IMG/VR virus record: IMGVR_UViG_3300018432_000014
Location: 9,488 to 73,487 of that record
Source of the DNA: a virus
Strand: one strand, 5' to 3'
Length of the DNA stretch: 64,000 bases
Below the pieces are notes generated by a model that saw only the letters and a list, made by a program, of their open reading frames with translations, did no database searches and was not told where the DNA came from. The translations under genes were made by a program, and so were the position numbers. Position 1 is the stretch's first letter. Every line of letters starts with the position of its first letter. Shown here one piece after another: positions 17,827 to 47,916 of this stretch.

Positions 17827-18037
17827 GTCGCAGTCGGCGGCGTATCGTGCCGACCGAGCAACCGAGTCGCAGCGCAAGTTGCACGGCTGTCATTTGCCCG
17901 GTGAGCACGCGTGCGAGATCGCTCGGCTGAATCACGAGCGTCGGTCGACCGACGTGCACGCCATTCGCCCGAGCTTTGCGAATGCCCTTTTTCGTGGCAT
18001 CGGAGATCGCGTTTCGGCATTGGTCGCAGATGCTCAT
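17810..18037 (-). CDS. Stand-alone resolvase-type helix E plus HTH domain
   Basis: ISDATKKGIRKARANGVHVGRP followed by HTH (AVQLALRLGCSVGTIRRRL). Confidence 0.65.
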   Translation of the reverse strand: MSICDQCRNAISDATKKGIRKARANGVHVGRPTLVIQPSDLARVLTGQMTAVQLALRLGCSVGTIRRRLRLMRAS

Positions 18038-18636: not shown

Positions 18637-21193
18637 GACTTGTCGGCTTGTTCACTCTCGAGCTGCGCCAGATGGTTTTTTAGCATGGCGATTTGGCTAA
18701 GCCGATCGATCGAAGACGAGTGATAGACGCTATCGAGGCGATGGTCTGTGATCAGCAACAGAAACGACTCGGTTCTGTAGAGCATCTGCATCACGGTGTC
18801 CGAGATCGCGCGCAACTTGCTTGAGAGAGCATCTGGACTGTCGGGCTCGTGCGAGCTGGTAGACTTGCCTTCTTTGCGGATGAGCCATTCGTTGATCTGT
18901 CGGATGCGGTTGACCGGATACGCTCGCGGGTGATCGGCCGCCTGAACGTGCGCGAGAGCTGCGACGAGTAGCTCGTCGATGAGAATGGTCTCCATGCCAA
19001 ATTCCTCACCCGCGAGGCTGGCGATCTTCTGTGCACGGACGATCGTCTCGTTGAAATCCTCGGGGGCGCGCCCGAGGATCGCGTTGACGTAGTCGTCTTT
19101 TGCATTCGGGCGCCAGAGCTTTCGCTTGCTCATGACGACTGCTCCGGCACCTTGATCGGCATCGGTCCCATAGGCCCGACCTTCGCATCACGATTGCGCT
19201 CGTCGTGCTTGTCGAGCAACTCGAGGGCCTTGCGTACGCGATCGGGATCGCTCTGGATCAACTCCTCGAGCTGCAGCGATGCGATCTGCGTTTTGATCTC
19301 GGCGATCGAGGCTTCGTGCTCGCGTTGCTTCGCGGTCAGTAGCTCGATCTCGCGAGCGGCGTTGCGCGGCTCGGCTGCGATGACAGCCACTCGTGTCCGT
19401 GGTCGATACGCGCGCTCGCGTGGCGCTCGAGGCGCTCGAGGCGCTCGAGCTGTTCCCGTGCGAGCTTTGGGTTTGGCAGTAAAGTACGCCTCGGCTTCGC
19501 GGTCGAGCGCGATGCGCTCGCTCTGGCTCAACGCGGTTCGGCTGATCGCCTGCTTCGCGATCCCGACCGTTGCGTAGGTGCCGGACGTGATCTTCGCGTG
19601 CATGGTCTTGAACGTCATGAGTGGCTTGCTCTTCATGGCTTGCTCTTTTCGGTTGAGTTGGACTCGGGGTTACGATTGTTGCTCGGTGAGTTGTCGCGCC
19701 AGCGTTGCAGCGCTTCGTCTTCGGTCGTGCCGCGACCGGGGGCTCGATACGAATCGTCTCTTGACGAGACCATGCTGCATGCACACCAAGCCGCGAAGTT
19801 GCCGCCCGCTTCGCGCACGACGGTGACAGCGTGCGCGCATCGCGGACAGCGGGCTTTCATGACTTGCGGTGCTTCTTGCCTGGCTTCTTGGGCCGCGCAC
19901 TCTCGATCCTCGAGAGCGTCTCGACGAACGTAGCGTGAGCGAGTTTGGCATCAGCGATGCTTGAGGTTGCGATCGAGCTTTCCTCGGACGGTAGCCATTC
20001 GGCGGCGTTGAGCACGCGGGTCTCGAATACGAATCGACCGCGACCGACGCTGCTATCGACGCCAGTCCAGATCGTCGAGACGCAAATTTCGCCGATCATG
20101 GTCGACTCGATCTGAGTGTAACTTTTGTCCGCGTGCAGCTCGCGCCACGTCTCGAAGTCGATCGGGATGAGGTCGCGATCGTAGAAGTCGAGCGTGCTCG
20201 TGCGCTTCAACTCTGAGCTGATCCGTTTGACCTCTCGCTCGAAGAGAGTCGCGGGTTGAGCCGCAGCCGCCTCGGTTTCGCACAATAGCTCGAGACCGCC
20301 GAAGATCGTCGAGTCGCGCATACGACTGTGTTCCAATTCGTTGAGGTAGCCTCGAGTCACAACCAGGATGTCGGGCGAATCGGGTTCGAAAAACTCTTCG
20401 AATGCGGATTCGACCGCAGCCTCTCGCGATCCGAACATGTCTTGCAGGGTCGGCAGCCCAAGCCCGCCGAGTGGGCCTCGCTCGTGCTGCTCCCACCGAT
20501 CGATCCTCTCGGATGCGAGGATGCGCGCGCGTTGCTCGGTGAGGTCGACGAAAATGCGATCGCCTACCTCGGGCGTGTGTTGCGGTCTGTAGTCGGGTTG
20601 TAATCGCGCCGGCTCGGCTTCGACCACCATCAGATCGCCAGACATCGAGGGGATCTCGATCGGCACTGCACCATCGCGACTGTTCCAAAGCGACTCGCGT
20701 TGCCCGTCTTCGCTGACGTAGGTGACGAAGCAATAGGCCAACGAGTGCTTGTGCCGCCCGCGAATCATTTCGCGCTCACGCGGGCACCGACGTTGTGCAT
20801 CGTCTCGACGCGCACGATGCCGCGCGTTTTCGGCGCGTCTCCGCAGAGCGAGCGATACTCGTCAACCCACGGGCCGAAATGCAGGGTCCGCTCGTTTTCG
20901 ATCCGAGCTTGCACGTGCGTGTAACGCGTAAAGCGCTCGACGCTCATCTGCAGCATGAATCGCGCTCGCGGCATCGAATGCCAGACGATCACCGGCGCGT
21001 TGTCGGGATAGGCGCTCTGCAGCACGGCATCATCGGTCTCGATCCACGCGTGCGCGAATCGGACGCCGTTCATTACGCAGATGCCATGCACGAGATAGAA
21101 CCGCTCACGCATGGCGTGCGGTACGTCAGTCATGAAATCGAGCGTGTCGTCGAAGCAGGTGTGCGTCGGCCGCAGAGTGTGCATGTCGCGCAC
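18633..21193 (-). other. Leftward operon of five hypothetical genes (18633-19133, 19130-19636, 19633-19860, 19857-20768, 20765-21193)
   Basis: ATGA-coupled minus-strand ORFs. Confidence 0.65.
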
Positions 21194-21245
21194 CGTACGG
21201 CAGTGGACACAGCCGCGACAACCGGCTTCTTTCAGCTAACCCATA

Positions 21246-21261
21246 GTCCCGTATGCGGGAC
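21246..21261. promoter_or_regulatory. Class II operator, perfect GTCCCG-TATG-CGGGAC
   Basis: Perfect 6-bp arms; motif recurs more than 10 times. Confidence 0.7.
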
Positions 21262-21262
21262 G

Positions 21263-21294
21263 ATCGGTTACGTGAGGCGCCTCACGTAACCGAT
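21263..21294. repeat. Perfect 32-bp palindrome ATCGGTTACGTGAGGCGCCTCACGTAACCGAT
   Basis: Self-reverse-complementary with no loop. Confidence 0.9.
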
Positions 21295-21338
21295 GATCGC
21301 TCGATGTCCTCGAATCGGGACTAGAATTCTTGCGAGTC

Positions 21339-21365
21339 GACACGAGCCCCGCTCGGGCTCGTGTC
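21339..21365 (-). terminator. Stem-loop downstream of ORF 21384-21659
   Basis: GACACGAGCCC-CGCTC-GGGCTCGTGTC; no clear U tract. Confidence 0.4.
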
Positions 21366-21383
21366 TCATCGGCAGATTTCAAA

Positions 21384-21659
21384 TCAGCGGCTCGTGTGCC
21401 TGCAGGATTCCGTTGCGCCCCGCGCTATCGAGTCGCTGTCGCCAAGCTTGAGAATGACGGCGCGTTGATGGTCCTCATGAAAGATGCCGACGCTGTAGCT
21501 GAGCGAGCGCAGAGCACATGCGCGAGCGTTGCTCTCGTTGCCGGCTGCCAAGCATCGCTCGGCATCGTCGAGGCAGAGTCGCGCGCTCGAGGCCATCGCG
21601 GCGCCGTTGCTGACGTGCTTGCGTGCGAGGTCGAGAATCTGCGAGGTCGAGGTCGTCAT
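21384..21659 (-). CDS. Small hypothetical protein (class I cassette gene)
   Basis: GGAG SD; downstream of class I promoter 21709-21747. Confidence 0.6.
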   Translation of the reverse strand: MTTSTSQILDLARKHVSNGAAMASSARLCLDDAERCLAAGNESNARACALRSLSYSVGIFHEDHQRAVILKLGDSDSIARGATESCRHTSR

Positions 21660-21708
21660 CTGAGAGGCTCCGGGTCGGTCGGTCGCGGTGTGCGACCTGA
21701 CAACTCAC

Positions 21709-21747
21709 ATCCTAGCTCGGTCTTTGAAAAGCGCTAGCGGTATTTCA
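21709..21747 (-). promoter_or_regulatory. Class I promoter/operator, copy 1
   Basis: TGAAATACCGCTAGCGCTTTTCAAAGACCGAGC-TAGGAT. Confidence 0.85.
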
Positions 21748-21757
21748 CAAGTGCGCG

Positions 21758-21973
21758 TTACTCTGCAGGAACCTCGATCGGCAATCCGAGCCGCTGTCGC
21801 ATGTAGTACGAGAGCGTCAAGTTGAGCGCGCGAGCTTCTTTCTTCAGCTGCGCCTTCTCGCTGACGGTCAACCCGATGAAAGCCGGAGAGCCCTTGCGTT
21901 TTTTGCCGAGACGCGGTCGACCCGCGCCCTCACGTGCTCCGCCTTGTCCGGCGTGAGCGATTTTCTTAGTCAT
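21758..21973 (-). CDS. Small DNA-binding protein (GGAREGAGRP motif plus RHH-like)
   Basis: AT-hook-like GRP motif, then LT.SEKAQLKKEA...LTLSYYMRQR. Confidence 0.65.
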   Translation of the reverse strand: MTKKIAHAGQGGAREGAGRPRLGKKRKGSPAFIGLTVSEKAQLKKEARALNLTLSYYMRQRLGLPIEVPAE

Positions 21974-21978
21974 GCTCA

Positions 21979-22018
21979 ACCCTGGATCGTGCCAATGAAA
22001 AGCGCAAGCGGTATTTCA
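21979..22018 (-). promoter_or_regulatory. Class I promoter/operator, copy 2 (divergent)
   Basis: TGAAATACCGCTTGCGCTTTTCA...CAGGGT, 5 nt, ATG 21973. Confidence 0.7.
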
Positions 22019-22029
22019 GACTGCCCGGA

Positions 22030-22313
22030 TTCGCGGCCCGGATGTGCGAAGAAGGGCAGCATGTGCGCGCGCGAGAGAGGATCCGAGCGGGATCCCCGTC
22101 GGCGGGCCCGCGCCGCTCGAGACCGCGCCGGGGGAACATCCGATCGCGGCCGAGCACGGGCCCTCGAGCCCGCGTGCGACCTGCGACCGCGCCGACCTTG
22201 CCGAGCCCGCGCCGGCTTGTGCCCGGGCCCCTCGAGCCCGCACGGGCCCGCGCCGGGGCATCTTGCGACCGCGCCGCTCGAGAGGCCCGCGCCCCTCGAG
22301 CCCGGGGCTCGTC
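22030..22313 (+). repeat. GC-rich spacer built of CCCGCGCCG, CTCGAG and GGGCCC units
   Basis: Several CCGCGCC(G) units, all on the + strand. Confidence 0.7.
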
Positions 22314-22556
22314 TCAGACCGCCTTGAGCTTGCGGCCGACCGCGATCACCTCTTGACGCATGCCGTATCGCAGTTGCGAGAGCAGATTGCGCGACCATTC
22401 GGTATCGCGAATCGCGAGCAACGTCGCTGCGAGCTTCTCGACCGAGGCGTAACCCGCGCCGCTTCCGTCGCCCTCGCCATCCTCGCCCGCTGCGTTGACG
22501 CATCCGACGAGATTCGTTGCCGTGTTCTTGAGAGCGTTGAGGTTCGTCTTGTTCAC
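22314..22556 (-). CDS. Hypothetical protein, leaderless from a class II promoter
   Basis: TTGTCT-17-CATGCT-6-GTG with operator 22566-22581. Confidence 0.65.
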   Translation of the reverse strand: MNKTNLNALKNTATNLVGCVNAAGEDGEGDGSGAGYASVEKLAATLLAIRDTEWSRNLLSQLRYGMRQEVIAVGRKLKAV

Positions 22557-22636
22557 ACCCTAAGCATGCCGGATCCGGGACACTAAGACAAGAGCAGAGG
22601 CCCGATCCCGAGCCGATCATGCGGGTCGTGTAGGTA

Positions 22637-22675
22637 TGAAATACCGCTTGCGTCTTTCAAGGCCGGAGCTAGAGT
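22637..22675 (+). promoter_or_regulatory. Class I promoter/operator, copy 3
   Basis: TGAAATACCGCTTGCGTCTTTCAAG...TAGAGT; ATG 22685. Confidence 0.8.
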
Positions 22676-22684
22676 CAAAAACAG

Positions 22685-22987
22685 ATGGACACCAACGAAA
22701 CAACGCAGTCGTTTGAGGCAACTGTCGAGGCATATGTTGCCGCTCTCAATGCTCGTGCGAACGAGCTGATCGCAGCCGGAAAGGCGCCTCTTTACCTGAG
22801 CTTCGGCTTCACGATGGGGCCAAAGCACGCGCGGATCTTCGCGAATCACGGCGGCACGAGCCGCAGCTCGCGCGCCTTTTTCAGCCGAGACGGCCTGATC
22901 CGTCGCGCCGACAGCTGGAAAGCGGCGGGTCGGATCCTCGGCAAGCATGACAGCGCCGACGCTTTCGCCTACATCTTCGGTCGTTGA
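22685..22987 (+). CDS. Small hypothetical protein (cassette)
   Basis: 100 aa after class I promoter; G.I.RADSWKA motif seen in small phage proteins. Confidence 0.75.
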   Translation: MDTNETTQSFEATVEAYVAALNARANELIAAGKAPLYLSFGFTMGPKHARIFANHGGTSRSSRAFFSRDGLIRRADSWKAAGRILGKHDSADAFAYIFGR

Positions 22988-23040
22988 TCCGCGCCGGGGC
23001 CCTCTTGAGAGGGCCCGCGCAGACAATCGACCCGCGCCGG

Positions 23041-23079
23041 TGAAATACCGCTAGCGCTTTTCAAGCGCTCAGCTAGAGT
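23041..23079 (+). promoter_or_regulatory. Class I promoter/operator, copy 4
   Basis: TAGAGT, 6 nt, GTG 23086. Confidence 0.88.
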
Positions 23080-23085
23080 CAAGAC

Positions 23086-23373
23086 GTGGACAAGAAGACG
23101 ACAACGAAATCGAAGAAGTTGCAGATCGTGCTCGCGAAACTCGTCGACGATGTGCGGGTGATTGATCCCGGTGCTCGCGACCTCGGGATCGGGCCGAAGT
23201 TCGAGGCGATCAAGCGGCCTGTCGCGCTAGTTTGGATTCGCAGCGGCACCGGCGCCGACCTCGAAAAGGCGCAGAAGTTCGCGCCGACCGAGGGTTACAC
23301 GGTCTTTGTGTACGCGCCGACCGAGCGCAACCCGCTCGACCGAGCCCGCGCCGACATTGCGGCGACCGCCTGA
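23086..23373 (+). CDS. Small hypothetical protein (cassette, leaderless)
   Basis: 95 aa; starts 6 nt after the -10. Confidence 0.75.
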   Translation: MDKKTTTKSKKLQIVLAKLVDDVRVIDPGARDLGIGPKFEAIKRPVALVWIRSGTGADLEKAQKFAPTEGYTVFVYAPTERNPLDRARADIAATA

Positions 23374-23420
23374 GCCGAGGCCCGCGCCGCTCGAGATTCT
23401 CGAGCGGCTGCCGGGAGTTG

Positions 23421-23459
23421 TGAAATACCGCTAGCGCTTTTCAAGATGCGAGCTAGGAT
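23421..23459 (+). promoter_or_regulatory. Class I promoter/operator, copy 5
   Basis: TAGGAT, 6 nt, ATG 23466. Confidence 0.88.
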
Positions 23460-23465
23460 CTAGGC

Positions 23466-23615
23466 ATGGACAACGCAGTAACACGGTACGAGATCGCGGT
23501 CGCCAAGATGAAAGACGCGGAAGCGCGCAACCTGTCACGCACGACGATCGCCAAGCGTTGGCGCGAAGTTTTCGCGGCAGAAGACGCTCTGAAAGCTCGC
23601 GATTTCTACCGCTGA
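23466..23615 (+). CDS. 49-aa helical peptide (cassette, leaderless; not in ORF track)
   Basis: MDNAVTRYEIAVAKMKDAEARNLSRTTIAKRWREVFAAEDALKARDFYR. Confidence 0.7.
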   Translation: MDNAVTRYEIAVAKMKDAEARNLSRTTIAKRWREVFAAEDALKARDFYR

Positions 23616-23652
23616 AAACACCGGGGCCCTCTCGAGGGCCCGCGCCGCTCGG

Positions 23653-23672
23653 GTGTAGCCCCGGGGCCACAC
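23653..23672. promoter_or_regulatory. 20-bp palindrome family, copy 4
   Basis: GTGTAGCCCCGGGGCCACAC, intergenic. Confidence 0.65.
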
Positions 23673-23694
23673 GGCAGCAATCGACCCGCGCCGG

Positions 23695-23733
23695 TGAAAT
23701 ACCGCTAGCGCTTTTCAAGACCTGAGCTAGAGT
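23695..23733 (+). promoter_or_regulatory. Class I promoter/operator, copy 6 (consensus)
   Basis: TGAAATACCGCTAGCGCTTTTCAAGACCTGAGCTAGAGT, 6 nt, ATG 23740. Confidence 0.9.
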
Positions 23734-23739
23734 CAAAAC

Positions 23740-23970
23740 ATGGAAACGAAATCGACCCGCGCCGCTAGGTTCGACGCTCTTCTTGCGGCAGCTGCCGCCC
23801 GCACACCGGGATACGCTGCAGCCGCCGCCCGTTGCGCGGCAGAAAACGCCGCTCTCAAGACGCGCGACCTCGCCGACGCACATCGTGCGAGCCGTAGCCC
23901 GCGACCCGACGGCGGCGAGGATGACGGTTGGGGTGACTATTGCTCGCCCCGATCGGCTTTCGAGGTGTGA
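23740..23970 (+). CDS. Small hypothetical protein (cassette, leaderless)
   Basis: 76 aa; its TGA stop is the first triplet of the next promoter copy. Confidence 0.7.
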   Translation: METKSTRAARFDALLAAAAARTPGYAAAAARCAAENAALKTRDLADAHRASRSPRPDGGEDDGWGDYCSPRSAFEV

Positions 23971-24006
23971 AATACCGCTAGCGCTTTTCAAGACCTGAGC
24001 TAGGAT
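23968..24006 (+). promoter_or_regulatory. Class I promoter/operator, copy 7
   Basis: TAGGAT, 6 nt, ATG 24013. Confidence 0.9.
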
Positions 24007-24012
24007 CTGAGC

Positions 24013-24234
24013 ATGGACACGAAGCAAGCCCTCAAGTTGATTTACCGCCACACACACCGCGATTCGCGCGGAACACTCTCGGATTGCAAGACGATCCTCG
24101 TCTACCGCAACGGGACCTGCCTCGTGCCGCTCGAGGCCCTCACGGCTGCCGAGATTGCCGAGCGCTTGCCGCTCGCAGAACGCCGCGAAGCCGAGCGGCT
24201 CGAGAAGATCGCAGCGAAAAAGGCGGCGAAATGA
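24013..24234 (+). CDS. Small hypothetical protein (cassette, leaderless)
   Basis: 73 aa; IYRHTHRD motif. Confidence 0.75.
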   Translation: MDTKQALKLIYRHTHRDSRGTLSDCKTILVYRNGTCLVPLEALTAAEIAERLPLAERREAERLEKIAAKKAAK

Positions 24235-24425
24235 TCACCCGCGCACAACTCGACTCGCACGTCTGCGACCGATCGCGATCGTGGTGGGCACACGACGCAC
24301 AAGGGATCCCGCTCTGTCGGGTCTGCGACACCTGCGAGCGTGCCAAGCTCTCGCGATACCGGCCCGAGATCCTGAGCGGATACGATCAATCTGACGTCGA
24401 CGAGCCGATCGAGGCAGACGACTGA
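24231..24425 (+). CDS. Small Zn-finger protein with acidic tail
   Basis: ATGA-coupled; DAQGIPLCRVCDTC...YRPEIL. Confidence 0.7.
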   Translation: MITRAQLDSHVCDRSRSWWAHDAQGIPLCRVCDTCERAKLSRYRPEILSGYDQSDVDEPIEADD

Positions 24426-24585
24426 TCCCGGGGCCCTCGAGCCCGTGCCGGGCCCGGCAATCGGAGCCCGGCCCTCGAGCCCGTGCCCGGCGACCCGCGC
24501 CGCTCGAGAGCTGCAGCTCGGGCCCGTGCCGACTCGAGGGCCCGCGCCGCTCGAGAAGCCCGCGCCGACAATCGACCGGGGCCGT

Positions 24586-24624
24586 TGAAATACCGCTAGC
24601 GCTTTTCAAGGCCTGAGCTAGATT
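24586..24624 (+). promoter_or_regulatory. Class I promoter/operator, copy 8
   Basis: TAGATT, 6 nt, ATG 24631. Confidence 0.88.
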
Positions 24625-24630
24625 CAAAAC

Positions 24631-24936
24631 ATGGCAAACGAAGTCGCAAACACCATCGTCGCGCAACTCAGCAATCGCGGTCTTTTCATGCTTGGCGCGA
24701 AAGACCTCGTCGCAGGCGAAAACAGCCTCACCTTCAAGATCGGCCGGAACAGCAAGACGATCTCGCACATCCGGATCACGCTCGATGCGAGCGACACCTA
24801 CACGGTCGAGTCGATCCGAGTGCGCAAGAGTGCGGGCGTGCCGGTCGTGCGGATCGTCGAGACCTGCGGCGACGTGTATGCGGACAGTCTCAAGCGCACG
24901 ATCGAGACGTTTACCGGCATGTACATGAGCTTGTGA
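24631..24936 (+). CDS. Phage hypothetical protein (cassette, leaderless)
   Basis: 101 aa; VANTI..QL, I.L..SDTY.V, VY.D.L...IE..TG.Y.SL pattern recalled from phage proteins. Confidence 0.8.
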   Translation: MANEVANTIVAQLSNRGLFMLGAKDLVAGENSLTFKIGRNSKTISHIRITLDASDTYTVESIRVRKSAGVPVVRIVETCGDVYADSLKRTIETFTGMYMSL

Positions 24937-24979
24937 GAGGCCGCGCCGCTCGAGAATCTCGAGCGGCTGCCGGGGCTTG

Positions 24980-25001
24980 TGAAATACCGCCAGCGCTTTT
25001 C
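24980..25001 (+). promoter_or_regulatory. Class I motif, copy 9 (truncated, no -10)
   Basis: TGAAATACCGCCAGCGCTTTTC then GGGCCCGCGCCG. Confidence 0.7.
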
Positions 25002-25067
25002 GGGCCCGCGCCGAAAATCGGCTCGATGGCCCTGGACATCAGGGCCTGCATCCGGGACCACTAAACG

Positions 25068-25328
25068 ATGGCAAGCAAGAAAAAACCGACGGACCTCACG
25101 ACTCAGATACTGATCCAAATTCGCGATGAGATCCGGCAGACAAACGAGCGACTCGAGCGACTCGAGCGCCGGCAGACCGACTCGGAAACGCGATTGGCGA
25201 CCGAGCTTGTCGCGCTCGCGAAAGCCGTCAACGATGTACGCGTGCTGATCATCGACATGCGTCAGGATCAGCGCCGCATGGAAGCGCTCGAGGAACGCGT
25301 GCTCCATGTCGAGCGCAAGGTGAGCTGA
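25068..25328 (+). CDS. Small coiled-coil protein (myxobacterial-type), leaderless from a class II promoter
   Basis: TDLT..IL.QIRDEIR.TNERL; TGGACA-17-GACCAC-6-ATG. Confidence 0.7.
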   Translation: MASKKKPTDLTTQILIQIRDEIRQTNERLERLERRQTDSETRLATELVALAKAVNDVRVLIIDMRQDQRRMEALEERVLHVERKVS

Positions 25329-25352
25329 TTCTCGAGCGGTCTCGAGCGGTTG

Positions 25353-25391
25353 TGAAATACCGCTAGCGCTTTTCAAAGACCGAGCTAAGCT
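25353..25391 (+). promoter_or_regulatory. Class I promoter/operator, copy 10
   Basis: TAAGCT, 6 nt, ATG 25398. Confidence 0.88.
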
Positions 25392-25397
25392 CTGGTT

Positions 25398-25574
25398 ATG
25401 ACAACGACGAGCAACGCGAAGACCTGGATTGTGGCCGAGTATCGCAACGACGACTTTTTCGGGCAGACCGAGAACCTCACTCAGAAAGAGGCGACCGACC
25501 TCGCAAACAAGATGAGGGCAGCCGGTCTCGAGGTGACGATCGCAGACGGCCCGGGCGACCTCGAGAGCTTCTGA
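25398..25574 (+). CDS. 58-aa protein (cassette, leaderless; not in ORF track)
   Basis: MTTTSNAKTWIVAEYRNDDFFGQTENLTQKEATDLANKMRAAGLEVTIADGPGDLESF. Confidence 0.7.
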   Translation: MTTTSNAKTWIVAEYRNDDFFGQTENLTQKEATDLANKMRAAGLEVTIADGPGDLESF

Positions 25575-25636
25575 GACCCGATCGGGCCCGGCAAACACCG
25601 GGCCCGCGCCGTTTCCGAGCCGCGCAGACGACCTCG

Positions 25637-25675
25637 TGAAATACAGCTAGCGCTTTTCAAGACTTGAGCTAGAGT
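25637..25675 (+). promoter_or_regulatory. Class I promoter/operator, copy 11
   Basis: TAGAGT, 6 nt, ATG 25682. Confidence 0.88.
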
Positions 25676-25681
25676 CAACTC

Positions 25682-26221
25682 ATGGACAGCAACGCAACCG
25701 AGATGTCGACCGAGGCCAAAAAGATTCACCCTTTCGAGCGCAACGGTCTCGGGATCGCGCCCTTCAAATACGTAGGGTTCTACGTCTCGAAATACCAGGC
25801 GATCCCGGGCGACCCGAGCTGCCCGATTCAGCCCGGCAGCTCGTGCGACCATTGCGGCACGGCGATCATGAATGTCTGCCGGATCAAGTCGGCCGACGGT
25901 CGCGAATTCAAGGTCGGATCCGACTGCGTTGGCAAGGTCGGGCGCGCGCACGATGCCGCTCTCTTGACCGCCGTCGAGGCCGCCGCCCGGAAACGTGCCG
26001 GCGCCGCTCGTAAGAGCCTCGCAGCGGCCCGCGCTGCAGAGCTGGCGACCTTGCTCGCAACCGAGACGGTCCGGGCGACCCTGGCCCTGCAGCCGCACCC
26101 GCACCCCTACCGCGCCGGGCTCGGTGACACGCTTCTCGACGCGATCGAGTTCTCGGTCAAGCGCAGCGGCGCCGCTGGCATCGCTCGCACGCTCAAGACG
26201 GTCAAGGCGCAGATCGCCTGA
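25682..26221 (+). CDS. Zn-binding hypothetical protein (cassette, leaderless)
   Basis: CDHCGTAI...F.VGSDCV.K. Confidence 0.8.
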   Translation: MDSNATEMSTEAKKIHPFERNGLGIAPFKYVGFYVSKYQAIPGDPSCPIQPGSSCDHCGTAIMNVCRIKSADGREFKVGSDCVGKVGRAHDAALLTAVEAAARKRAGAARKSLAAARAAELATLLATETVRATLALQPHPHPYRAGLGDTLLDAIEFSVKRSGAAGIARTLKTVKAQIA

Positions 26222-26343
26222 CCGGGGCCCCTCTCGAGGGCCCGAGCGGCTCGAGGGCAGGAGGCCCGCTGCCCGAGCATGTCGCTCGAAATCCGCGCCG
26301 CTCGAGGGCTGCAGCGGTTCGCAGAGAAATCGACTCGGTCAGA

Positions 26344-26382
26344 TGAAATACCGCTAGCGCATTTCAAGACCTCGGCTAGGCT
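26344..26382 (+). promoter_or_regulatory. Class I promoter/operator, copy 12
   Basis: TAGGCT, 6 nt, ATG 26389. Confidence 0.85.
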
Positions 26383-26388
26383 CTAGAC

Positions 26389-27180
26389 ATGGACACGAAC
26401 AAACCGACTCTCAGCGTGAATCTCATCGCAATCGTCGACGGCTACCTCAGCGGCAAGCGCCGCGAGAAGTTTCGCGACAGCATCTCGATTCTCAACCGCT
26501 CGCTCGCACAAGGTGCCTGGACACCGCGGGGCTCGGTCAAGGCGAGCGCTGGTTTCTATCAGGGTCTCGCGAAAAAGATCGGCAATCTTCAACCTTACGA
26601 GCTTGACGCATGCGTACGCTACGGCCAGCCGATGCGGTCGGTGACACTTACAGACGAGATGTGCATGCAACTGTCGTCGTCTCGCGTGTTGCGCGCTTGG
26701 GTCACGCTCTGCTCGGAAGTCGCTGCAGCTCGCGCGTTTCTCGATGCGGCCCGCCCGACGCCGGTTGTCACGGCGATCGGTCTCTCGCCGAAAGTCACGA
26801 AGACTCTGAAAGACTGCAATCTCGACATCGATCTCGCGACGATCAAGCCCGCGAAGATCAGCTTTTACGAAGTGCAGGCGCGCGATAAGGCCGGCGAATT
26901 GCGGGTTGATCGCGACGGTAAGCCGGTGATGGAGCGAGTCTATTTCGTCGACTGGAGCGCGGGTTGCCTTTTCAACCGGTCGCGGTTTGCGATGGGTGAC
27001 GGCTGCCACGCTTGCGGCAAGACGATCCCGAGCGGCCGATTCGTGCCGATCGAGGCGAGCTGCAAGAAGCTCGGGCAGAAGGTCGCCCTCTGGCTCGGCT
27101 GCGACTGCGCGCGGAACATCTTTGGCGTCAAGGACATCGGCATCGACAAGAATGCGAAAGCGCCGACCGCGGGCGAGTGA
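26389..27180 (+). CDS. Hypothetical protein with C-terminal Zn finger (cassette, leaderless)
   Basis: CHACGK.I...LGCDCA, the same finger type as 25682-26221. Confidence 0.8.
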   Translation: MDTNKPTLSVNLIAIVDGYLSGKRREKFRDSISILNRSLAQGAWTPRGSVKASAGFYQGLAKKIGNLQPYELDACVRYGQPMRSVTLTDEMCMQLSSSRVLRAWVTLCSEVAAARAFLDAARPTPVVTAIGLSPKVTKTLKDCNLDIDLATIKPAKISFYEVQARDKAGELRVDRDGKPVMERVYFVDWSAGCLFNRSRFAMGDGCHACGKTIPSGRFVPIEASCKKLGQKVALWLGCDCARNIFGVKDIGIDKNAKAPTAGE

Positions 27181-27192
27181 AACTTTCTCGAG

Positions 27193-27219
27193 GGCTCGGG
27201 TCGAATATCGGCCCGAGCC
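27193..27219 (+). terminator. Stem-loop after the last cassette
   Basis: GGCTCGGGTCGA-ATA-TCGGCCCGAGCC. Confidence 0.45.
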
Positions 27220-27221
27220 TA

Positions 27222-27250
27222 TTGCATACGGGTCCCGCATCCGGGACACT
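27222..27250 (+). promoter_or_regulatory. Class II promoter with perfect operator
   Basis: TTGCAT-17-GACACT-6-ATG; GTCCCGCATCCGGGAC at 27232-27247. Confidence 0.8.
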
Positions 27251-27256
27251 AAAGGT

Positions 27257-27565
27257 ATGGATTACGTCAGCAAGACGGGGCTCGCGAAAATGCGCAAGGT
27301 CGTGAGAGAGACTCGAGCGCTTTATGCGGAGGCCCGATGGGTTGCGCTCGCAGCCGGCAGACAGGCTCGGTCGCGTGACACGAGCCGAGCCCGGCTGATC
27401 CTCGAAGACGCACTCGACGCGGCTCTCGAGGCTCGCCAGACCATGCGGCATTACGCAGGCGTGCTTGCCAAGATGGAGGCTCTCCCGATCGAGCCGCATG
27501 CAGGTCGAGTGAGCCCGGCTGCGCTCGCTCGGCTGCGCTCGCTCGGCCGACTCAATCCGGCTTGA
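27257..27565 (+). CDS. Hypothetical protein, leaderless
   Basis: Starts 6 nt after the class II -10. Confidence 0.65.
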   Translation: MDYVSKTGLAKMRKVVRETRALYAEARWVALAAGRQARSRDTSRARLILEDALDAALEARQTMRHYAGVLAKMEALPIEPHAGRVSPAALARLRSLGRLNPA

Positions 27566-27647
27566 CCGTACACCGGACAAGGGTACACTCAATGAGTTAC
27601 CGGTGTCACGGGCGTCGACAAACACCTCTACTGAAAATGAGGACGGC

Positions 27648-28013
27648 ATGACTGCAAAGAAGACTGAATCGAAGCTCAAGCCGGGCGATCGCGAAGCAGG
27701 CGAGTTTCTCGACGAGCTTTTGGGAGGCCCGCTGACGTTTGGTGCGATGGTTCGCTCGACTCGAATGACAGACAATTTCACGCTCGCGACGTTCGCGAAG
27801 AAGCTCGGTGTGTCGCGGCAATTCGTGTGTGATGTGGAACAGGGGCGGCGCGCTGTGTCGGCTGTTACGGCTGCGAAATGGGCTCGGTTGCTTGGCTACG
27901 CAGAGGCCGTATGGATTGCGCTTGCGTTGCAAGCGTCTCTCGATGCATCCGGCCTCAAGTATCGTGTGCGCGTTGAATCAATCGCACGCTCGCGAATGCG
28001 CAAGGCGTCGTGA
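27648..28013 (+). CDS. XRE-family HTH protein, HigA antitoxin-like, no adjacent toxin
   Basis: GGPLTFG.M....R......FAKKLGVSRQFVCDVEQGRRAVS...AAKWA; own TTGACC/TACACT promoter. Confidence 0.75.
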   Translation: MTAKKTESKLKPGDREAGEFLDELLGGPLTFGAMVRSTRMTDNFTLATFAKKLGVSRQFVCDVEQGRRAVSAVTAAKWARLLGYAEAVWIALALQASLDASGLKYRVRVESIARSRMRKAS

Positions 28014-28017
28014 TCCA

Positions 28018-29055
28018 GTGAGCACGCCAGCGAACATGTTCGACGCGACTCGGCTCAGTGCGAGCTACGCGTTGCAGTTTTCGAAAGCATGGTTGAGCGA
28101 TCCTCTTTCGACGGCGTCTGCTCTCACCGAGCGGATTTGCGAGCGCATGCATTTCCGAAAGCCGAAGGACGATCCCGAGGCGGACGGCGCCTATCACACC
28201 GTGCTGATGAACACGCTCATTTGCGGTCGGTGGGCCATGGCTGGGCTACCGGTTGTGACTCTCGGGCATCGTACGGCGGCGGCTCTCATGGCGACTCGGA
28301 TGAAGCCGGAGGATGCTGAGGAATTCGTGCGCGCGCCGTGGCCCGCATTCGCGATCCGGCTGCCGGTGCCGTTGCTCACGATCGAAAAGCAGGGAGTGCT
28401 ACTCGACGCGAATCTCGTGATGGTGACGAGTGTGCCGAGAGAGCATGTGCACGCGAGCGACGGCCTGCCCGGGCGCGAGAGGTGGTGGTACAAGCTCGTC
28501 GCGCTCGATTCTGAAGATCTGCCCGACGTTGCGATGATGCCGCCCGAGACGATCGGGTTTCTAGGCGGCCTCAACATTTGGGGCTTCAACATGCCGACTC
28601 GGTATCTCGCGACGCCCGACACGAGTGACGAAGAAGGTTTCACGAGATGGGATCTTCGCGAGACGGTCTCGAGCGACCAACGCTCGGATCAGATGGTGCG
28701 ATCGTTGATCATCGCATGCTGTCTGTATCTCAGCGGCGACCCGCTCTCGAGGGCCGCTCGGACAGAGGGCGAGGGCGCAGTCACGATCACGACTCGCTCG
28801 AGGGCGCAGCGACACGGCGACGATCTGCCGGGCTACACCGAGCACGAGATCCGATCGTCGATCAAGATCAACCTGCATCACGCGATCCGCGACTACGTCA
28901 AGCACGGCGGCGGCACACCATCGGTGCAGACGCTCGTCGCTGGCCACTGGAAACGCCAAGCTCACGGCCCGGGCCGGACCGAGCGCCGGATCATTCACGT
29001 GCAACCGTATTGGCGAGGTCCGATCGACGCGCCGGTCTCGATTCGGATCAAGTGA
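28018..29055 (+). CDS. Hypothetical protein with C-terminal V.GHW..Q..G...R..I.V.PYWRG motif
   Basis: 345-aa ORF; motif recalled from uncharacterised phage proteins. Confidence 0.7.
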   Translation: MSTPANMFDATRLSASYALQFSKAWLSDPLSTASALTERICERMHFRKPKDDPEADGAYHTVLMNTLICGRWAMAGLPVVTLGHRTAAALMATRMKPEDAEEFVRAPWPAFAIRLPVPLLTIEKQGVLLDANLVMVTSVPREHVHASDGLPGRERWWYKLVALDSEDLPDVAMMPPETIGFLGGLNIWGFNMPTRYLATPDTSDEEGFTRWDLRETVSSDQRSDQMVRSLIIACCLYLSGDPLSRAARTEGEGAVTITTRSRAQRHGDDLPGYTEHEIRSSIKINLHHAIRDYVKHGGGTPSVQTLVAGHWKRQAHGPGRTERRIIHVQPYWRGPIDAPVSIRIK

Positions 29056-29228
29056 CGGCCGAGATCGAAGACTCGGTGCAACCTCGTGAGTAAGGTCTCG
29101 GACGATGTGGCGGCATGGTACGCGGGGAGATCCCGCGGCGCCTCTGTCAGGTGGGTCATGAAACACCGCTGCATCGTTCTCGGCTGGCCAAGACAGGCGA
29201 TCGACTTCCCGTGAATCCGTGGGCCCGC

Positions 29229-29248
29229 GTGTGGCCCCGGGATTACAC
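29229..29248. promoter_or_regulatory. 20-bp palindrome family, copy 5
   Basis: GTGTGGCCCCGGGATTACAC upstream of the gene at 29280. Confidence 0.6.
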
Positions 29249-29279
29249 GCTCGGTTACCCTCTCGAGAGAGGTGACACC

Positions 29280-35017: not shown

Positions 35018-35063
35018 TGGAGTCAGGGGGGATCGAACCCCCGGCCTCCGCACTGCCAGTGCG
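35018..35063 (-). other. attP core: 3' half of tRNA-Ala(GGC)
   Basis: Minus strand CGCA-CTGGCAG-TGCG-GAGGCC-GGGGG-TTCGATC-CCCCC-TGACTCCA gives anticodon arm, T arm and acceptor 3' strand; no D arm or 5' strand; about 1 kb from the integrase. Confidence 0.85.
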
Positions 35064-37603: not shown

Positions 37604-37623
37604 GCCGCCCGGGCCCGCGCCGC

Positions 37624-37806: not shown

Positions 37807-37996
37807 ACAACAACCGTAGCTCATCCGGGACACTAACGCAAGAGGCTAGGCTCGAGATTCAACCGGCGCCGCTCGAGGCCCGCGCCGCTCGAGGCGAGCC
37901 CGAGCAGACCGGATCGCGTATCCGCGGAAGACTAGAGAAGCGCCGGGCGCTATCCGGGACACTAGCGCCCGATTCCCGAGGCGCTGTCGCAAGTTA

Positions 37997-38035
37997 TGAA
38001 ATACCGCAAGCGCTTTTCAGGACCCGAGCTAGAGT
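37997..38035 (+). promoter_or_regulatory. Class I promoter/operator, copy 14
   Basis: TAGAGT, 7 nt, GTG 38043. Confidence 0.82.
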
Positions 38036-41182: not shown

Positions 41183-41347
41183 CGCGTCGCTCGAGGGCCC
41201 GAGCTGCCCGATCGCCTCGAGGCCGCTACGTCGACGAGCCCGCTCGAGGCCCGCGCCACTCAGAGCCTGCAGGCTACCGCCGATCGGCAGCTCGAGGCCC
41301 GCGCCGACCTGCAGCCCGCGCCGCTCGAGACCGCCGATCGGCTCTCG

Positions 41348-41386
41348 TGAAATACAGCTAGCGCTTTTCAAGACCTGAGCTAGAGT
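41348..41386 (+). promoter_or_regulatory. Class I promoter/operator, copy 15
   Basis: TAGAGT, 6 nt, GTG 41393. Confidence 0.88.
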
Positions 41387-41669: not shown

Positions 41670-41708
41670 TGAAATACCGCTAGCGCTTTTCAAGACCTGA
41701 GCTAGAGT
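41670..41708 (+). promoter_or_regulatory. Class I promoter/operator, copy 16
   Basis: Consensus; TAGAGT, 6 nt, GTG 41715. Confidence 0.9.
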
Positions 41709-41960: not shown

Positions 41961-42004
41961 GAGGCCCGCGCCGCTCGAGATTCTCGAGCGGCTGCCGGGG
42001 CTTG

Positions 42005-42043
42005 TGAAATACCGCTAGCATTTTTCAAGACCTGAGCTAGAGT
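42005..42043 (+). promoter_or_regulatory. Class I promoter/operator, copy 17
   Basis: TGAAATACCGCTAGCATTTTTCAAGACCTGAGCTAGAGT. Confidence 0.88.
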
Positions 42044-47872: not shown

Positions 47873-47878
47873 CTTGCT

Positions 47879-47898: not shown

Positions 47899-47916
47899 GG
47901 GTGTTCCGACGTTGAG

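What the first reader, a model, noticed from the sequence alone, without database searches (positions are those of the whole stretch)
22030..26310. Strand-polar CCCGCGCCG(CTCGAG) motif fills the cassette spacers regardless of gene direction (Chi-like?)
Seen: spacers at 22030-22313, 22988-23040, 23374-23420, 23616-23694, 24426-24585, 24937-25020, 25575-25636, 26222-26343, 37604-37623, 37850-37960, 41183-41347 and 41961-42004 are largely made of CCGCGCCG, often as GGCCCGCGCCGCTCGAG. By eye there are roughly 30 copies, all on the + strand. The polarity holds between leftward genes (22030-22313; near 37611 and 37681), so it follows the chromosome rather than transcription. I did not see the reverse CGGCGCGG in these spacers. 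Established: Chi and KOPS are short polar motifs read by translocating enzymes. Inference: a Chi-like signal that protects incoming DNA from host RecBCD/AddAB, or focuses recombination at cassette borders (the phage encodes SbcCD-like and RuvC-like proteins).
Basis: partly seen in the sequence, partly recalled or inferred. Interest (0 to 1): 0.8.

Follow-up and report, generated by a model that had tools for sequence, protein, structure and literature searches.

The report
Polar GC-rich repeats between phage cassettes
A short C-rich DNA word really does sit on only one strand in the gaps between small genes of this uncultured soil phage, but it behaves like a fast-changing private repeat family at shuffled gene-cassette joints, not like a Chi-type signal.

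Summary
CCGCGCCG occurs 36 times on + and 6 on - in the window. It is the most strand-skewed 8/9-mer of the 73.5-kb phage record.

The bias is local. It is confined to about 2.4 kb of intergenic DNA next to one repeated leaderless promoter ("class I"). Other intergenic DNA (3+/4-) shows none; coding DNA is 24+/10- here and 35/35 in the relative.

One close relative (G001) has the same word and polarity. Three further relatives have neither the word bias nor the promoter.

Orthologous spacers differ greatly in length and copy number, and G001 carries overt tandem arrays. Cassettes are shuffled between the two phages.

Best reading (about 0.5): a hypervariable minisatellite family at PeSL-like joints. 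It would be kept on one strand by head-to-tail slippage and by homologous exchange, which preserves orientation.

A Chi-like role is not supported, but it is untestable here because the host is unknown. Docking sites for a protein remain the main rival.

This scan has reported polar boundary words in phage cassette arrays on other DNA before.

The parts
22018..22313 (+). Left spacer, flanked by leftward genes on both sides. It holds 7 copies of CCGCGCC on + and 0 on -. Its counterpart in G001 is a long (CGGCGCCCTCGAGCC)n array followed by a (GCCCGCGCCGCTCGAGA)n array.
22988..23040 (+). Spacer with 2 copies. The proximal copy lies 2 nt before the class I promoter match (junction type B, ACAATCGACCCGCGCCGGT).
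23374..23420 (+). Type A junction. The word forms the 5' arm of the hairpin GCCGCTCGAGA-T-TCTCGAGCGGC, which sits directly after a stop codon and before a class I promoter.
   Evidence: z = -2.6 on +
23616..23694 (+). Spacer with 2 copies (one of type B), plus a GGGCCC-based hairpin and a dispersed palindrome.
24426..24585 (+). Spacer with 3 perfect copies and CCCGTGCC variants. Tandem Repeats Finder reports arrays with periods of 14 to 19.
24937..24979 (+). Type A junction hairpin, carrying one copy as GGCCGCGCCG.
   Evidence: z = -4.5
24981..25013 (+). Degenerate class I promoter whose downstream half is replaced by GGGCCCGCGCCG.
25575..25636 (+). Spacer with 1 copy. The orthologous spacer in G001 is 192 nt long with 8 copies.
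26222..26343 (+). Spacer with 1 copy. The spacer after the orthologous gene in G001 is unrelated, 58 nt long, with 0 copies.
37604..37623 (+). Single copy between the stop of a leftward gene and a diverged leftward class-I-like promoter (18 of 24 positions by my own reading). It is absent at the G001 counterpart.
37850..37960 (+). Divergent region with CCGGCGCCGCTCGAGGCCCGCGCCGCTCGAG. At this place G001 has a (GCAGACG)x7 array instead.
41183..41347 (+). Spacer after the DNA ligase gene. It holds 2 perfect copies and one decayed copy (CCCGCGCCA). TRF reports a period of 24.
41961..42004 (+). Type A junction hairpin with one copy.
   Evidence: z = -4.2
21723..21746 (-). Class I promoter core on the - strand. 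No word-bearing spacer lies upstream.
21994..22017 (-). Class I promoter core on the - strand, driving the RHH-like gene. The left spacer lies upstream of it with the word in the opposite sense.
22638..22661 (+). Class I promoter core, the first rightward cassette.
23042..23065 (+). Class I promoter core.
23422..23445 (+). Class I promoter core.
23696..23719 (+). Class I promoter core.
23969..23992 (+). Class I promoter core, with no word-bearing spacer before it.
24587..24610 (+). Class I promoter core.
25354..25377 (+). Class I promoter core, preceded only by TCTCGAGCGG x2 and no copy of the word.
25638..25661 (+). Class I promoter core.
26345..26368 (+). Class I promoter core.
37998..38021 (+). 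Class I promoter core, for the amidoligase gene.
41349..41372 (+). Class I promoter core.
41671..41694 (+). Class I promoter core, with no word-bearing spacer before it.
42006..42029 (+). Class I promoter core.
21758..21979 (-). Leftward 73-aa gene to the left of the left spacer. It has a ribbon-helix-helix-like sequence, with a NikA-like Pfam hit below the curated cut-off (E 5.3e-4, 20.5 bits against 27).
22314..22556 (-). Leftward 80-aa gene to the right of the left spacer. It matches no family.

Best explanation
The word (consensus RRCCCGCGCCG, often followed by CTCGAG; longest shared unit about GGGCCCGCGCCGCTCGAGACCGC) is the signature of a lineage-private family of GC-rich minisatellite spacers. 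These spacers sit at the joints of a promoter-gene-(terminator) cassette array in a roughly 110-kb temperate soil phage.

The seeds are asymmetric pieces of the joint itself. One is the 5' arm of the post-stop hairpin (type A: CCCGC-GCCGCTCGAGA-T-TCTCGAGCGGC-T-GCCGGG). The other is the box just upstream of the promoter (type B: ACAATCGACCCGCGCCGGT).

I propose three steps. First, head-to-tail slippage or unequal exchange multiplies and deletes units, which keeps orientation within a spacer. Second, homologous exchange between spacers moves units from joint to joint; this can happen on one chromosome or between co-infecting relatives. Third, such exchange preserves orientation relative to the chromosome, whichever way the neighbouring genes point, which gives the one-strand pattern without any reader enzyme.

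Shown here: the enrichment, the polarity, the confinement to the cassette spacers, the tandem arrays, the copy-number turnover, the shared direct-orientation words and the cassette shuffling.

Inferred, not shown: the slippage and exchange mechanism, and any role of the spacers as insulating or terminating filler or as extra homology for shuffling.
For: 1. Confinement. CCGCGCC is 24+/0- in 2,375 nt of class-I intergenic DNA, 3+/4- in 10,119 nt of other intergenic DNA, and 24+/10- in about 61 kb of coding DNA. In G001 the figures are 14+/1- and 35+/35- for coding.

2. Overt tandem arrays in the relative G001: (CGGCGCCCTCGAGCC) x13.3 at 1-191 and again at the contig end, (CGCCGCTCGAGAC) x5.4, and a 9-10-mer x8.6 at 5534-5615. 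The window has degenerate arrays at 24432-24569 and 41242-41315.

3. Turnover at orthologous joints. One joint is 62 nt with 1 copy against 192 nt with 8 copies. Others are 165 nt/3 against 114 nt/1, and 122 nt/1 against 58 nt/0. At 37834-37996 G001 carries a different array, (GCAGACG)x7, so the places themselves are prone to slippage whatever the unit. Copies also decay at orthologous positions.

4. A common pool in direct orientation. The left spacer shares words of up to 19-25 nt with rightward-array spacers in direct orientation. In inverted orientation it shares only CTCGAG- or GGGCCC-centred words of 13 nt or less.

5. The word is dispensable. Several class I promoters have no word-bearing spacer: 23969, 25354 and 41671 here, and 1006, 2640, 22303, 22760 and 69767 in G001. 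G003 has an analogous array with its own promoter, short spacers and ordinary hairpin-plus-T terminators, and no minisatellites.

6. There is no fixed distance from the word to the promoter. From the gaps are 2, 2, 19, 25, 26, 32, 32, 32, 44 and 110 nt.

7. Cassette exchange is real. 9 of 11 array ORFs have homologues in G001 at 59-86% amino-acid identity, with two order changes.

8. The 18-nt unit is private to this lineage in IMG/VR. It matched 3 stretches: G001, plus two unrelated contigs with single hits inside apparent coding sequence, by my reading of the printed flanks.
Against: All 17 perfect 9-mer copies in the window's spacers, and all 15 in G001's, sit in different 29-nt contexts. 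The flanks lose conservation sharply outside about 11 nt plus CTCGAG. That profile also fits a discrete protein-binding word kept by selection.

The uniform orientation across at least 12 spacers and two genomes (29+/0- and 27+/0- at up to 1 mismatch) is stronger than slippage alone predicts. It needs the added assumption of orientation-preserving exchange, which I infer and did not observe.

The left spacer and the copy at 37615 are inverted relative to their own leftward cassettes, so descent with the promoter cannot explain them.

Population-level length variation could not be checked, because only contigs of two runs were available. Only two genomes carry the system, so the comparative evidence is thin.
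Confidence: 0.5

Rival explanations
1. The word is a docking site for a phage-encoded or host DNA-binding protein. Arrays of variable copy number upstream of cassette promoters would act as a roadblock or insulator, as a titration array, or as a regulator of the class I regulon. Known parallels are arrays of short direct repeats bound by ribbon-helix-helix proteins.
For: The core is sharply bounded (RRCCCGCGCCG) and sits in 17 of 17 and 15 of 15 unique contexts. It co-occurs strictly with class I cassette spacers. Small DNA-binding candidates lie nearby: an RHH-like 73-aa gene at 21758-21979 directly beside the largest array (Pfam hit below cut-off), and HTH proteins at 17810-18037 and 35341-35598. 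The half-site CCGCT is shared by the word, the type A palindrome and the class I operator CCGCTAGCGC (my own reading). Earlier notes of this scan on other phages reached similar readings, but those are not independent evidence.
Against: There is no fixed distance or helical register to the promoter; gaps run from 2 to 110 nt. Many class I promoters lack the word. Copies decay at orthologous positions, and copy number varies from 0 to 8 between close relatives. G003 also carries an RHH-like gene next to its array but has no such repeats (the RHH reading there is mine, from the printed sequence, and was not searched). No binding was tested.
Confidence: 0.2
2. This is the first reader's idea: a Chi-like, strand-specific signal. 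It would be read by a translocating helicase-nuclease (the G-rich complement 5'-CGGCGCGG on the - strand, met by an enzyme moving rightward). It would either protect the DNA or make cassette borders hot for recombination.
For: The word is asymmetric, and in the left spacer its orientation is independent of gene direction. Its complement is G-rich, as the known Chi sequences are (recalled from memory, no call). Cassette borders are exchange points. The phage encodes an SbcC-like protein.
Against: The signal is not dispersed. Enrichment and polarity are confined to about 2.4 kb, and the coding DNA of G001 is 35/35. It is absent from three relatives with TerL identity of 49-76%, and the unit is private to this lineage in IMG/VR. 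Copies decay and copy number is unstable. Sister lineage G003 has such an array without the word. The near-identical promoters already supply homology for exchange.
Confidence: 0.07
3. The word acts at the RNA level. It would be part of the 3' ends of cassette transcripts, as a terminator or attenuator hairpin, a C-rich Rho-loading (rut) tract, or a processing or stability signal.
For: In the three type A junctions the word is the 5' arm of a hairpin right after the stop codon, and these fold far better than shuffles (z = -2.6, -4.5 and -4.2 on +). Most copies lie downstream of rightward genes.
Against: The long, word-rich spacers fold no better than shuffles (z from +0.9 to -1.1 on the + strand). 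The C-over-G excess is slight, with (C-G)/(C+G) from -0.12 to +0.12, so the tracts are not rut-like. In 21000-27500 the only + strand terminator-like hits (22505, 26531) lie inside called genes, so no hairpin-plus-T terminator sits on the + strand in these spacers. In the left spacer and at 37615 the transcript of the adjacent leftward gene would carry the complement. No Rfam family matches.
Confidence: 0.08
4. The word acts through a strand-specific physical feature of the DNA. One option is site-specific single-strand nicks, as in T5-like or phiKMV-like phages. The other is G-quadruplex or i-motif formation on one strand.
For: Canonical G4 motifs (G3+ runs, loops of 1-7) occur only on the - strand. 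The window's genome has 0 on + and 3 on -, two of them in spacers. G001 has 0 on + and 11 on -, nine of them in the left spacer array.
Against: Only 2 of the 12 spacers in the window contain a canonical G4 motif. Nicks cannot be seen in contigs, and I searched for no nickase. The comparison with T5 nick sites is from memory.
Confidence: 0.05

Closest known systems
PeSLs (promoter-early stem-loops) of T4-type phages. Sources: Arbiol et al. 2010, PMC2839356 (I read the abstract and section 13); Comeau et al. 2014, PMC4122927 (abstract only).
   Same: Both are repeated composite promoter plus stem-loop joints between small orphan genes in a plastic region. Close relatives differ by gain, loss and re-ordering of cassettes at these joints.
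   Different: The phage lineage is different: temperate, about 110 kb, GC-rich and from soil metagenomes. The promoters are leaderless (-10 followed by about 6 nt and then ATG) with an internal palindrome, and there is no Shine-Dalgarno sequence. On top of this, many joints carry hypervariable arrays of a one-strand GC-rich word, which neither the abstracts of the two PeSL papers nor section 13 of the first mention.
Chi sites (RecBCD or AddAB) and KOPS (FtsK). Recalled from memory, no call.
   Same: Both are short asymmetric words whose orientation can be independent of transcription.
   Different: Chi and KOPS are dispersed genome-wide and oriented with replication. This word is confined to about 2.4 kb of cassette spacers, varies in copy number, is absent from related phages, and has no known reader.
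Bacterial and phage minisatellites (VNTR-type tandem repeats). General knowledge.
   Same: Both form head-to-tail arrays of 9-24-nt units. Copy number differs between close relatives, and different units can expand at the same place.
   Different: One word family is shared by a dozen separate loci in one orientation, which needs exchange between loci as well as slippage.
Stoperators of Cluster A mycobacteriophages. Recalled from memory, no call.
   Same: Both are asymmetric short sites repeated in short intergenic regions of a phage.
   Different: As I recall, stoperators are oriented with transcription and spread through the genome. This word keeps its + orientation between leftward genes and is confined to the cassette array.
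Arrays of short direct repeats bound by ribbon-helix-helix proteins (omega heptads, ParR-parC, MetJ boxes). Recalled from memory, no call.
   Same: Both show a variable number of short repeats upstream of promoters, and here an RHH-like gene lies next to the largest array.
   Different: No binding has been shown. There is no regular phasing, and units are mixed with other words.

Membership tests
Chi-like or KOPS-like polar signal | Over-representation and strand polarity along the whole replicon, not only in one locus. | tested here: not met
   Class-I spacers give 24+/0- in 2,375 nt. Other intergenic DNA gives 3+/4-. Coding DNA gives 24+/10- in G000 and 35+/35- in G001.
Chi-like or KOPS-like polar signal | Recognition by a translocating enzyme (RecBCD, AddAB or FtsK) with an orientation-dependent effect. 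| not testable with these tools
   This needs a biochemical or genetic assay, and the host is unknown.
Chi-like or KOPS-like polar signal | The same word is enriched and skewed in the host chromosome. | not testable with these tools
   No host or prophage relative was found. The promoter pattern scan of genome contigs gave 0 hits, and the TerL profile scan gave 0 confirmed.
Chi-like or KOPS-like polar signal | Shared by related phages (whether they share a host is unknown). | tested here: not met
   G001 gives 28/5. G002 gives 0/4, G003 2/2 and G004 2/0. The 18-nt unit is found elsewhere only as 2 single hits, which lie inside apparent coding sequence by my reading.
PeSL-type mobile regulatory cassette | A repeated composite of promoter and stable stem-loop between small genes. 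| tested here: met
   The class I promoter core matches 16 times. Three type A joints have hairpins with z = -2.6 to -4.5 against shuffles. Other joints lack a significant hairpin.
PeSL-type mobile regulatory cassette | Indels, replacements and re-ordering between close relatives, with breakpoints at the joints. | tested here: met
   9 of 11 array ORFs are shared with G001, with two order changes and extra cassettes in G001. DNA homology starts at the promoter edges.
PeSL-type mobile regulatory cassette | Sigma-70 early promoter with an AT-rich upstream region and a Shine-Dalgarno sequence, in T4-type myoviruses (PMC2839356, section 13). | tested here: not met
   The promoters are leaderless with GC-rich upstream spacers, and the consensus scan finds no TTGACA-17-TATAAT promoters on + here. 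The phage carries an integrase. Among relatives found by TerL search, none is named or annotated as T4-type.
PeSL-type mobile regulatory cassette | Demonstrated promoter and terminator activity. | not testable with these tools
   No RNA run is listed, so reporter assays are needed.
Minisatellite (VNTR) | Head-to-tail arrays of short units. | tested here: met
   TRF rows at 24432-24569 and 41242-41315 in the window, and at 1-319, 3088-3228, 5038-5076 and 5473-5615 in G001.
Minisatellite (VNTR) | Copy-number differences between close relatives at the same locus. | tested here: met
   1 against 8, 3 against 1, and 1 against 0 copies. A different unit sits at 37834-37996.
Minisatellite (VNTR) | Length polymorphism within a population. 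| tested here: inconclusive
   Only Logan contigs of two runs were available. The region is broken into short contigs at the repeats, and the joints seen may be assembly paths.
Stoperator-type repressor sites | Orientation tied to the direction of transcription (recalled from memory). | tested here: not met
   7 copies lie on + between two leftward genes, and 1 copy lies on + upstream of a leftward promoter.

The most novel reading that the evidence does not exclude
The 11-nt word RRCCCGCGCCG is a phage-private signal read from one DNA strand by a phage enzyme or DNA-binding protein, such as a nickase, a recombination initiator or a polar roadblock. It would mark cassette borders and promote or police the exchange of self-expressed gene cassettes. 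In effect this would be a private, Chi- or attC-like recombination signal layered on PeSL-like joints. The uniform orientation regardless of gene direction, and the sharply bounded core in unique contexts, would then reflect selection and not descent.
Probability: 0.12. Interest if true: 0.75.

Novelty: new variant of a known kind. Interest (0 to 1): 0.33.

Why it matters
Arrays of self-expressed small genes are where phages keep and trade accessory and probably anti-host functions. This case shows a PeSL-like shuffling architecture in an unrelated, GC-rich, temperate soil phage lineage with leaderless promoters.

It also carries an extra layer of fast-evolving repeats on one strand. The case gives a simple, testable explanation for a pattern this scan keeps meeting: polar words at cassette borders whose orientation ignores gene direction. 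Exchange by homologous recombination preserves chromosomal orientation, so no reader enzyme is needed.

If the word is instead read by a protein, it would be a handle on how cassette exchange or insulation is controlled.

As it stands, the finding is a well-documented oddity of one small lineage with no demonstrated function.

Tried and rejected
Genome-wide Chi/KOPS reading: rejected on distribution and on absence from relatives.

CTCGAG as a special signal: it occurs 218 times (about 9 times the zero-order expectation). A 4th-order Markov model already expects 188, and 104 of the 162 coding copies are in frame 0 (CTC-GAG). So this is genome composition, not a spacer signal.

Hairpin or terminator reading for all spacers: only type A joints fold better than shuffles (mononucleotide shuffles, 40 each). 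My first script, which used dinucleotide shuffles, timed out. In 21000-27500 the scan found 8 terminator-like sites against 4.9 +/- 2.4 in shuffles. The two on + (22505, 26531) lie inside called genes, so none sits in a word-bearing spacer on +.

Rut-like C-rich tracts: the skew is too small.

Rfam: 0 matches at gathering score over the whole window.

Host search:
- The promoter pattern gave 0 hits in genome contigs.
- The TerL profile gave 40 pattern hits in genome contigs, none confirmed.
- Atlas neighbours of the integrase come from several phyla (Planctomycetota, Acidobacteriota, Verrucomicrobiota and others), so they give no host.
- The phages collection gave no DNA match for 20000-30000 and no match for the 424-aa protein at 57820-59094. 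The amidoligase has only distant hits below 60% identity.

Relatives: the promoter pattern found only G001 in viral and metagenome contigs, and it is the same 110,308-bp contig under two names. TerL homologues on long contigs (P0008, P0016, P0018, P0024, P0030) could not be fetched.

Sequencing runs: 2 listed, both kept as contigs, with no RNA holder listed. When laid, they gave fragmented contigs. Two joints were seen (22126 to 25633 with 9 other letters between, and 23734 to 25343). These may be assembly paths through the repeated promoters, so I draw nothing from them. X2 holds near-identical pieces of cassettes at 25832-26894 and a type A joint, which hints at a third relative.

Regular phasing of copies: the spacings are mixed (15, 17, 18, 20, 21, 36, 41, 43, 46, 47, 64, 65 nt), so I rejected this as evidence.

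Resemblance of TCGAG repeats to SARP boxes: this was recalled only and dropped, because CTCGAG is common genome-wide.

Supplements of the PeSL papers were not opened. Figure S1 of PMC2839356, with the reporter data, may bear on how terminator activity was defined.

Full report
WHAT THE WINDOW IS. The window is bases 9488-73487 of a single 73,487-bp virus record. It encodes these proteins:
- a portal with a LAGLIDADG insert, an SbcC-like ATPase, an ATP-dependent DNA ligase and an amidoligase;
- a large terminase, a tyrosine integrase and a ParB-methyltransferase fusion.

So it is a temperate tailed phage. GC content is about 62%.

It is collinear with G001, a 110,308-bp IMG/VR contig. The 424-aa protein at 57820-59094 is 86% identical between them, and the window's record maps to G001 79866-110308 plus 1-44161. 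The record is therefore a fragment of a genome of about 110 kb.

THE OBSERVATION. Counts for the word:
- CCGCGCCG occurs 36 times on + and 6 on - in the window, 42 in all. Shuffles average 16.9 and never exceed 30.
- In the whole record CCCGCGCCG is 30+/3-, and the 14-mer with CTCGAG is 10+/0-.
- These are the most strand-skewed 8- and 9-mers of the genome.
The 8-mer covers only 15% of those bases, and the 17-mer occurs 5 times.
- With up to one mismatch the spacers give 29+/0-. With two mismatches the counts are 40+/15-.

WHERE THE WORD IS. I made a crude gene map by codon-usage scoring. On that map the enrichment and polarity belong to one compartment: intergenic DNA that carries the repeated 'class I' promoter. 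That promoter is GAAATACCGCTAGCGCTTTTCAAG...GAGCTAGAGT, about 6 nt, then ATG, with 16 matches at 3 mismatches or fewer.

By compartment, CCGCGCC gives:
- 24+/0- in 2,375 nt of class-I intergenic DNA;
- 3+/4- in 10,119 nt of other intergenic DNA;
- 24+/10- in coding DNA.

G001 shows the same picture, with 14+/1- in class-I intergenic DNA and 35+/35- in coding DNA. So this is a local feature of the cassette array. It is not a chromosome-wide polar signal.

ANATOMY OF THE JOINTS. Printing 110 nt upstream of every class I promoter in both genomes shows recurrent joint types.
- Type A: a stop codon, then (GA)GGCCCGCGCCGCTCGAGAWTCTCGAGCGGCTGCCG..., then the promoter. Here the word is the 5' arm of a long hairpin whose 3' arm is an imperfect complement (CGGC-T-GCCGGG). 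That alone hides the reverse word.
- Type B: ...ACAATCGACCCGCGCCGGT, then the promoter. Variants are CCGGGGCCG, and in G001 CCGGCGCCG.

Further upstream come mixed runs of the word, CTCGAG, GGGCCC and GAGCCCG. Several promoters have no such spacer at all.

Only type A joints fold better than shuffled sequence (z = -2.6, -4.5 and -4.2). The long word-rich spacers do not (z from +0.9 to -1.1 on +).

C-over-G excess in the spacers is small. In 21000-27500 the only hairpin-plus-T sites on + (22505, 26531) lie inside called genes, not in a spacer. No Rfam family matches.

RELATIVES. G001 has the same word with the same polarity. The 9-mer is 28 forward and 5 reverse, against 1 and 3 for the control. 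It clusters at 239-6024, among G001's class I promoters.

There the repeat nature is plain:
- (CGGCGCCCTCGAGCC) x13 at the contig start and again at its end, so the contig 'terminal repeat' is this array;
- (CGCCGCTCGAGAC) x5;
- a 9-10-mer x8.6.

Orthologous joints differ sharply:
- 62 nt with 1 copy against 192 nt with 8 copies;
- 165 nt with 3 copies against 114 nt with 1 copy;
- 122 nt with 1 copy against 58 nt with 0 copies.

Where the window has CCGGCGCCGCTCGAGGCCCGCGCCGCTCGAG (37862-37892), G001 has (GCAGACG)x7. Copies at orthologous positions are decayed differently in the two phages. So these places expand and contract whatever unit they hold.

The next relatives by TerL are G002 (76%), G003 (74%) and G004 (49%). 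They have no bias (0/4, 2/2, 2/0) and no class I promoter.

G003 has an analogous array of at least 6 cassettes. Its promoter has the same architecture but a different inner palindrome (TGAAATCGTGTTGCAC...). The spacers I read in the printed array are short, with ordinary hairpin-plus-T terminators or none at all. The repeat family is therefore not needed for such an array to exist.

The 18-nt unit occurs nowhere else in IMG/VR, except as two single hits inside apparent coding sequence, by my reading.

DOES POLARITY IGNORE TRANSCRIPTION? The informative case is the left spacer, 22018-22313. It lies between the stop of a leftward 80-aa gene and the leftward class I promoter of an RHH-like gene. 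It carries 7 copies on +, and its G001 counterpart is likewise on +.

A single copy at 37615 lies on + between a leftward stop and a diverged leftward class-I-like promoter. It is absent in G001.

The left spacer shares words of up to 19-25 nt with the rightward spacers in direct orientation. In inverted orientation it shares only palindrome-centred words of 13 nt or less. So it draws on the same sequence pool.

MECHANISM PROPOSED. Slippage and unequal exchange make head-to-tail copies. Homologous exchange between loci, or between co-infecting genomes, can move sequence only in the same chromosomal orientation. Together these predict three things:
- one polarity across all joints, whichever way the neighbouring genes point;
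- unstable copy number;
- decaying copies.

All three are seen. Cassette exchange itself is documented: 9 of 11 array ORFs have homologues in G001 (59-86% identity). The last cassette of the window is the second in G001, and the gene at 24013 sits in another cassette there. G001 also has extra cassettes.

This matches the logic of PeSLs in T4-type phages. Those are composite promoter/stem-loop motifs in hyperplastic regions, and recombination between them shuffles genes (PMC2839356, abstract and section 13; PMC4122927, abstract). The steps 'slippage' and 'exchange' are inferred here, not observed.

WHAT SPEAKS AGAINST IT. All perfect copies (17 in the window's spacers, 15 in G001's) have different 29-nt contexts. 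Conservation also drops sharply outside RRCCCGCGCCG(CTCGAG), as it would for a selected binding word.

I therefore keep a docking-site reading at 0.2. Points in its favour are the small RHH-like and HTH proteins encoded nearby and the CCGCT half-site, which the word, the type A palindrome and the class I operator share. Points against it are the absence of any fixed register to the promoter (gaps of 2 to 110 nt), the many promoters without the word, and the lack of per-copy conservation.

The other rivals score lower:
- Chi-like, 0.07. It is not dispersed, is private to one lineage, and its copy number is unstable.
- RNA-level signal, 0.08. This fits type A hairpins only.
- Strand-specific nicks or G4 structures, 0.05. 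Canonical G4 motifs lie only on the - strand (0/3 and 0/11), but in just 2 of the 12 spacers of the window.

LIMITS.
- The host is unknown.
- Only contigs of two soil runs were available, so I have no population or RNA evidence.
- My gene map is heuristic.
- The comparative evidence rests on two genomes that carry the system and one sister array that does not.

VERDICT. The Chi-like interpretation is not supported, though the link to exchange at cassette borders is compatible with the data.

The feature is a new variant of a known kind: PeSL-like cassette joints carrying a private, polar, hypervariable repeat family. Interest is moderate to low unless a reader protein is found.

Earlier notes of this scan describe similar polar boundary words in cassette arrays of other phages. 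I used them as leads only.

Noticed in passing
window 21723-42029 (16 matches) and L031 16914-19453: The class I promoter has a fixed architecture: TGAAAT, an inner palindrome, TTCAAG, GCTAGAGT, about 6 nt, then ATGGAC. The sister lineage G003 keeps the frame but swaps the inner palindrome (CGTGTTGCACG in place of CCGCTAGCGC), as if a lineage-specific regulator changed its operator. The repeat runs into the first codons, and many cassette proteins start with MD.
   Followed up: partly
whole record and G001: GAGCTC is absent from both phages: 0 in 73.5 kb and 0 in 110 kb, where a 4th-order Markov model expects 68 in G001. AGGCCT is 0 in G001 but 9 in G000. This looks like restriction-site avoidance. 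The class I promoter carries GAGCTAG, one base away from GAGCTC.
   Followed up: partly
window 22222-22249, 24472-24496, 25804-25834; G001 1-190 and 110187-110301: Canonical G-quadruplex motifs occur only on the - strand in both genomes (0+/3- and 0+/11-). Nine of G001's eleven lie in the 15-mer array of the left spacer.
   Followed up: partly
window 24981-25013: A class I promoter is truncated after TTTTC and continues as GGGCCCGCGCCG. The next gene (25068) is instead preceded by a class II-like element on the opposite strand. This looks like a scar of exchange inside a promoter.
   Followed up: no
window 32843-33967 and 35017-35092: A tyrosine integrase sits in a lower-GC stretch (0.58), and a tRNA-Ala(GGC) gene lies on the - strand about 1 kb away. 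This may be the attachment region of a temperate phage.
   Followed up: no
window 13468-15588 and 48702-51740; G001 TerL (P0002, 1013 aa): Intein-type domains come and go in this phage family. The portal here carries a LAGLIDADG domain. TerL of G001 and of several relatives carries Hint/LAGLIDADG domains (PF05204, PF14528), and these proteins are about 300 aa longer than the window's 706-aa TerL.
   Followed up: no
window 46658-48244 (-): A fusion of a ParB-like domain and a DNA methyltransferase (PHROG 498, E 1.5e-72; PHROG 620, E 5e-23).
   Followed up: no
window 22566-22585, 25043-25062, 37816-37835, 37945-37965: A second repeated element, CCGGGACACTA on +, reads on the - strand as TTAGTGTCCCGG-ATG. 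That is a second class of leaderless promoter pointing leftward. At 25051 it would drive an antisense 46-aa ORF across a junction.
   Followed up: no
window 21336-21366: A strong perfect hairpin, GACACGAGCCC-CGCT-CGGGCTCGTGTC, lies after the leftward 91-aa gene. It is conserved in G001 (109413-109445).
   Followed up: no
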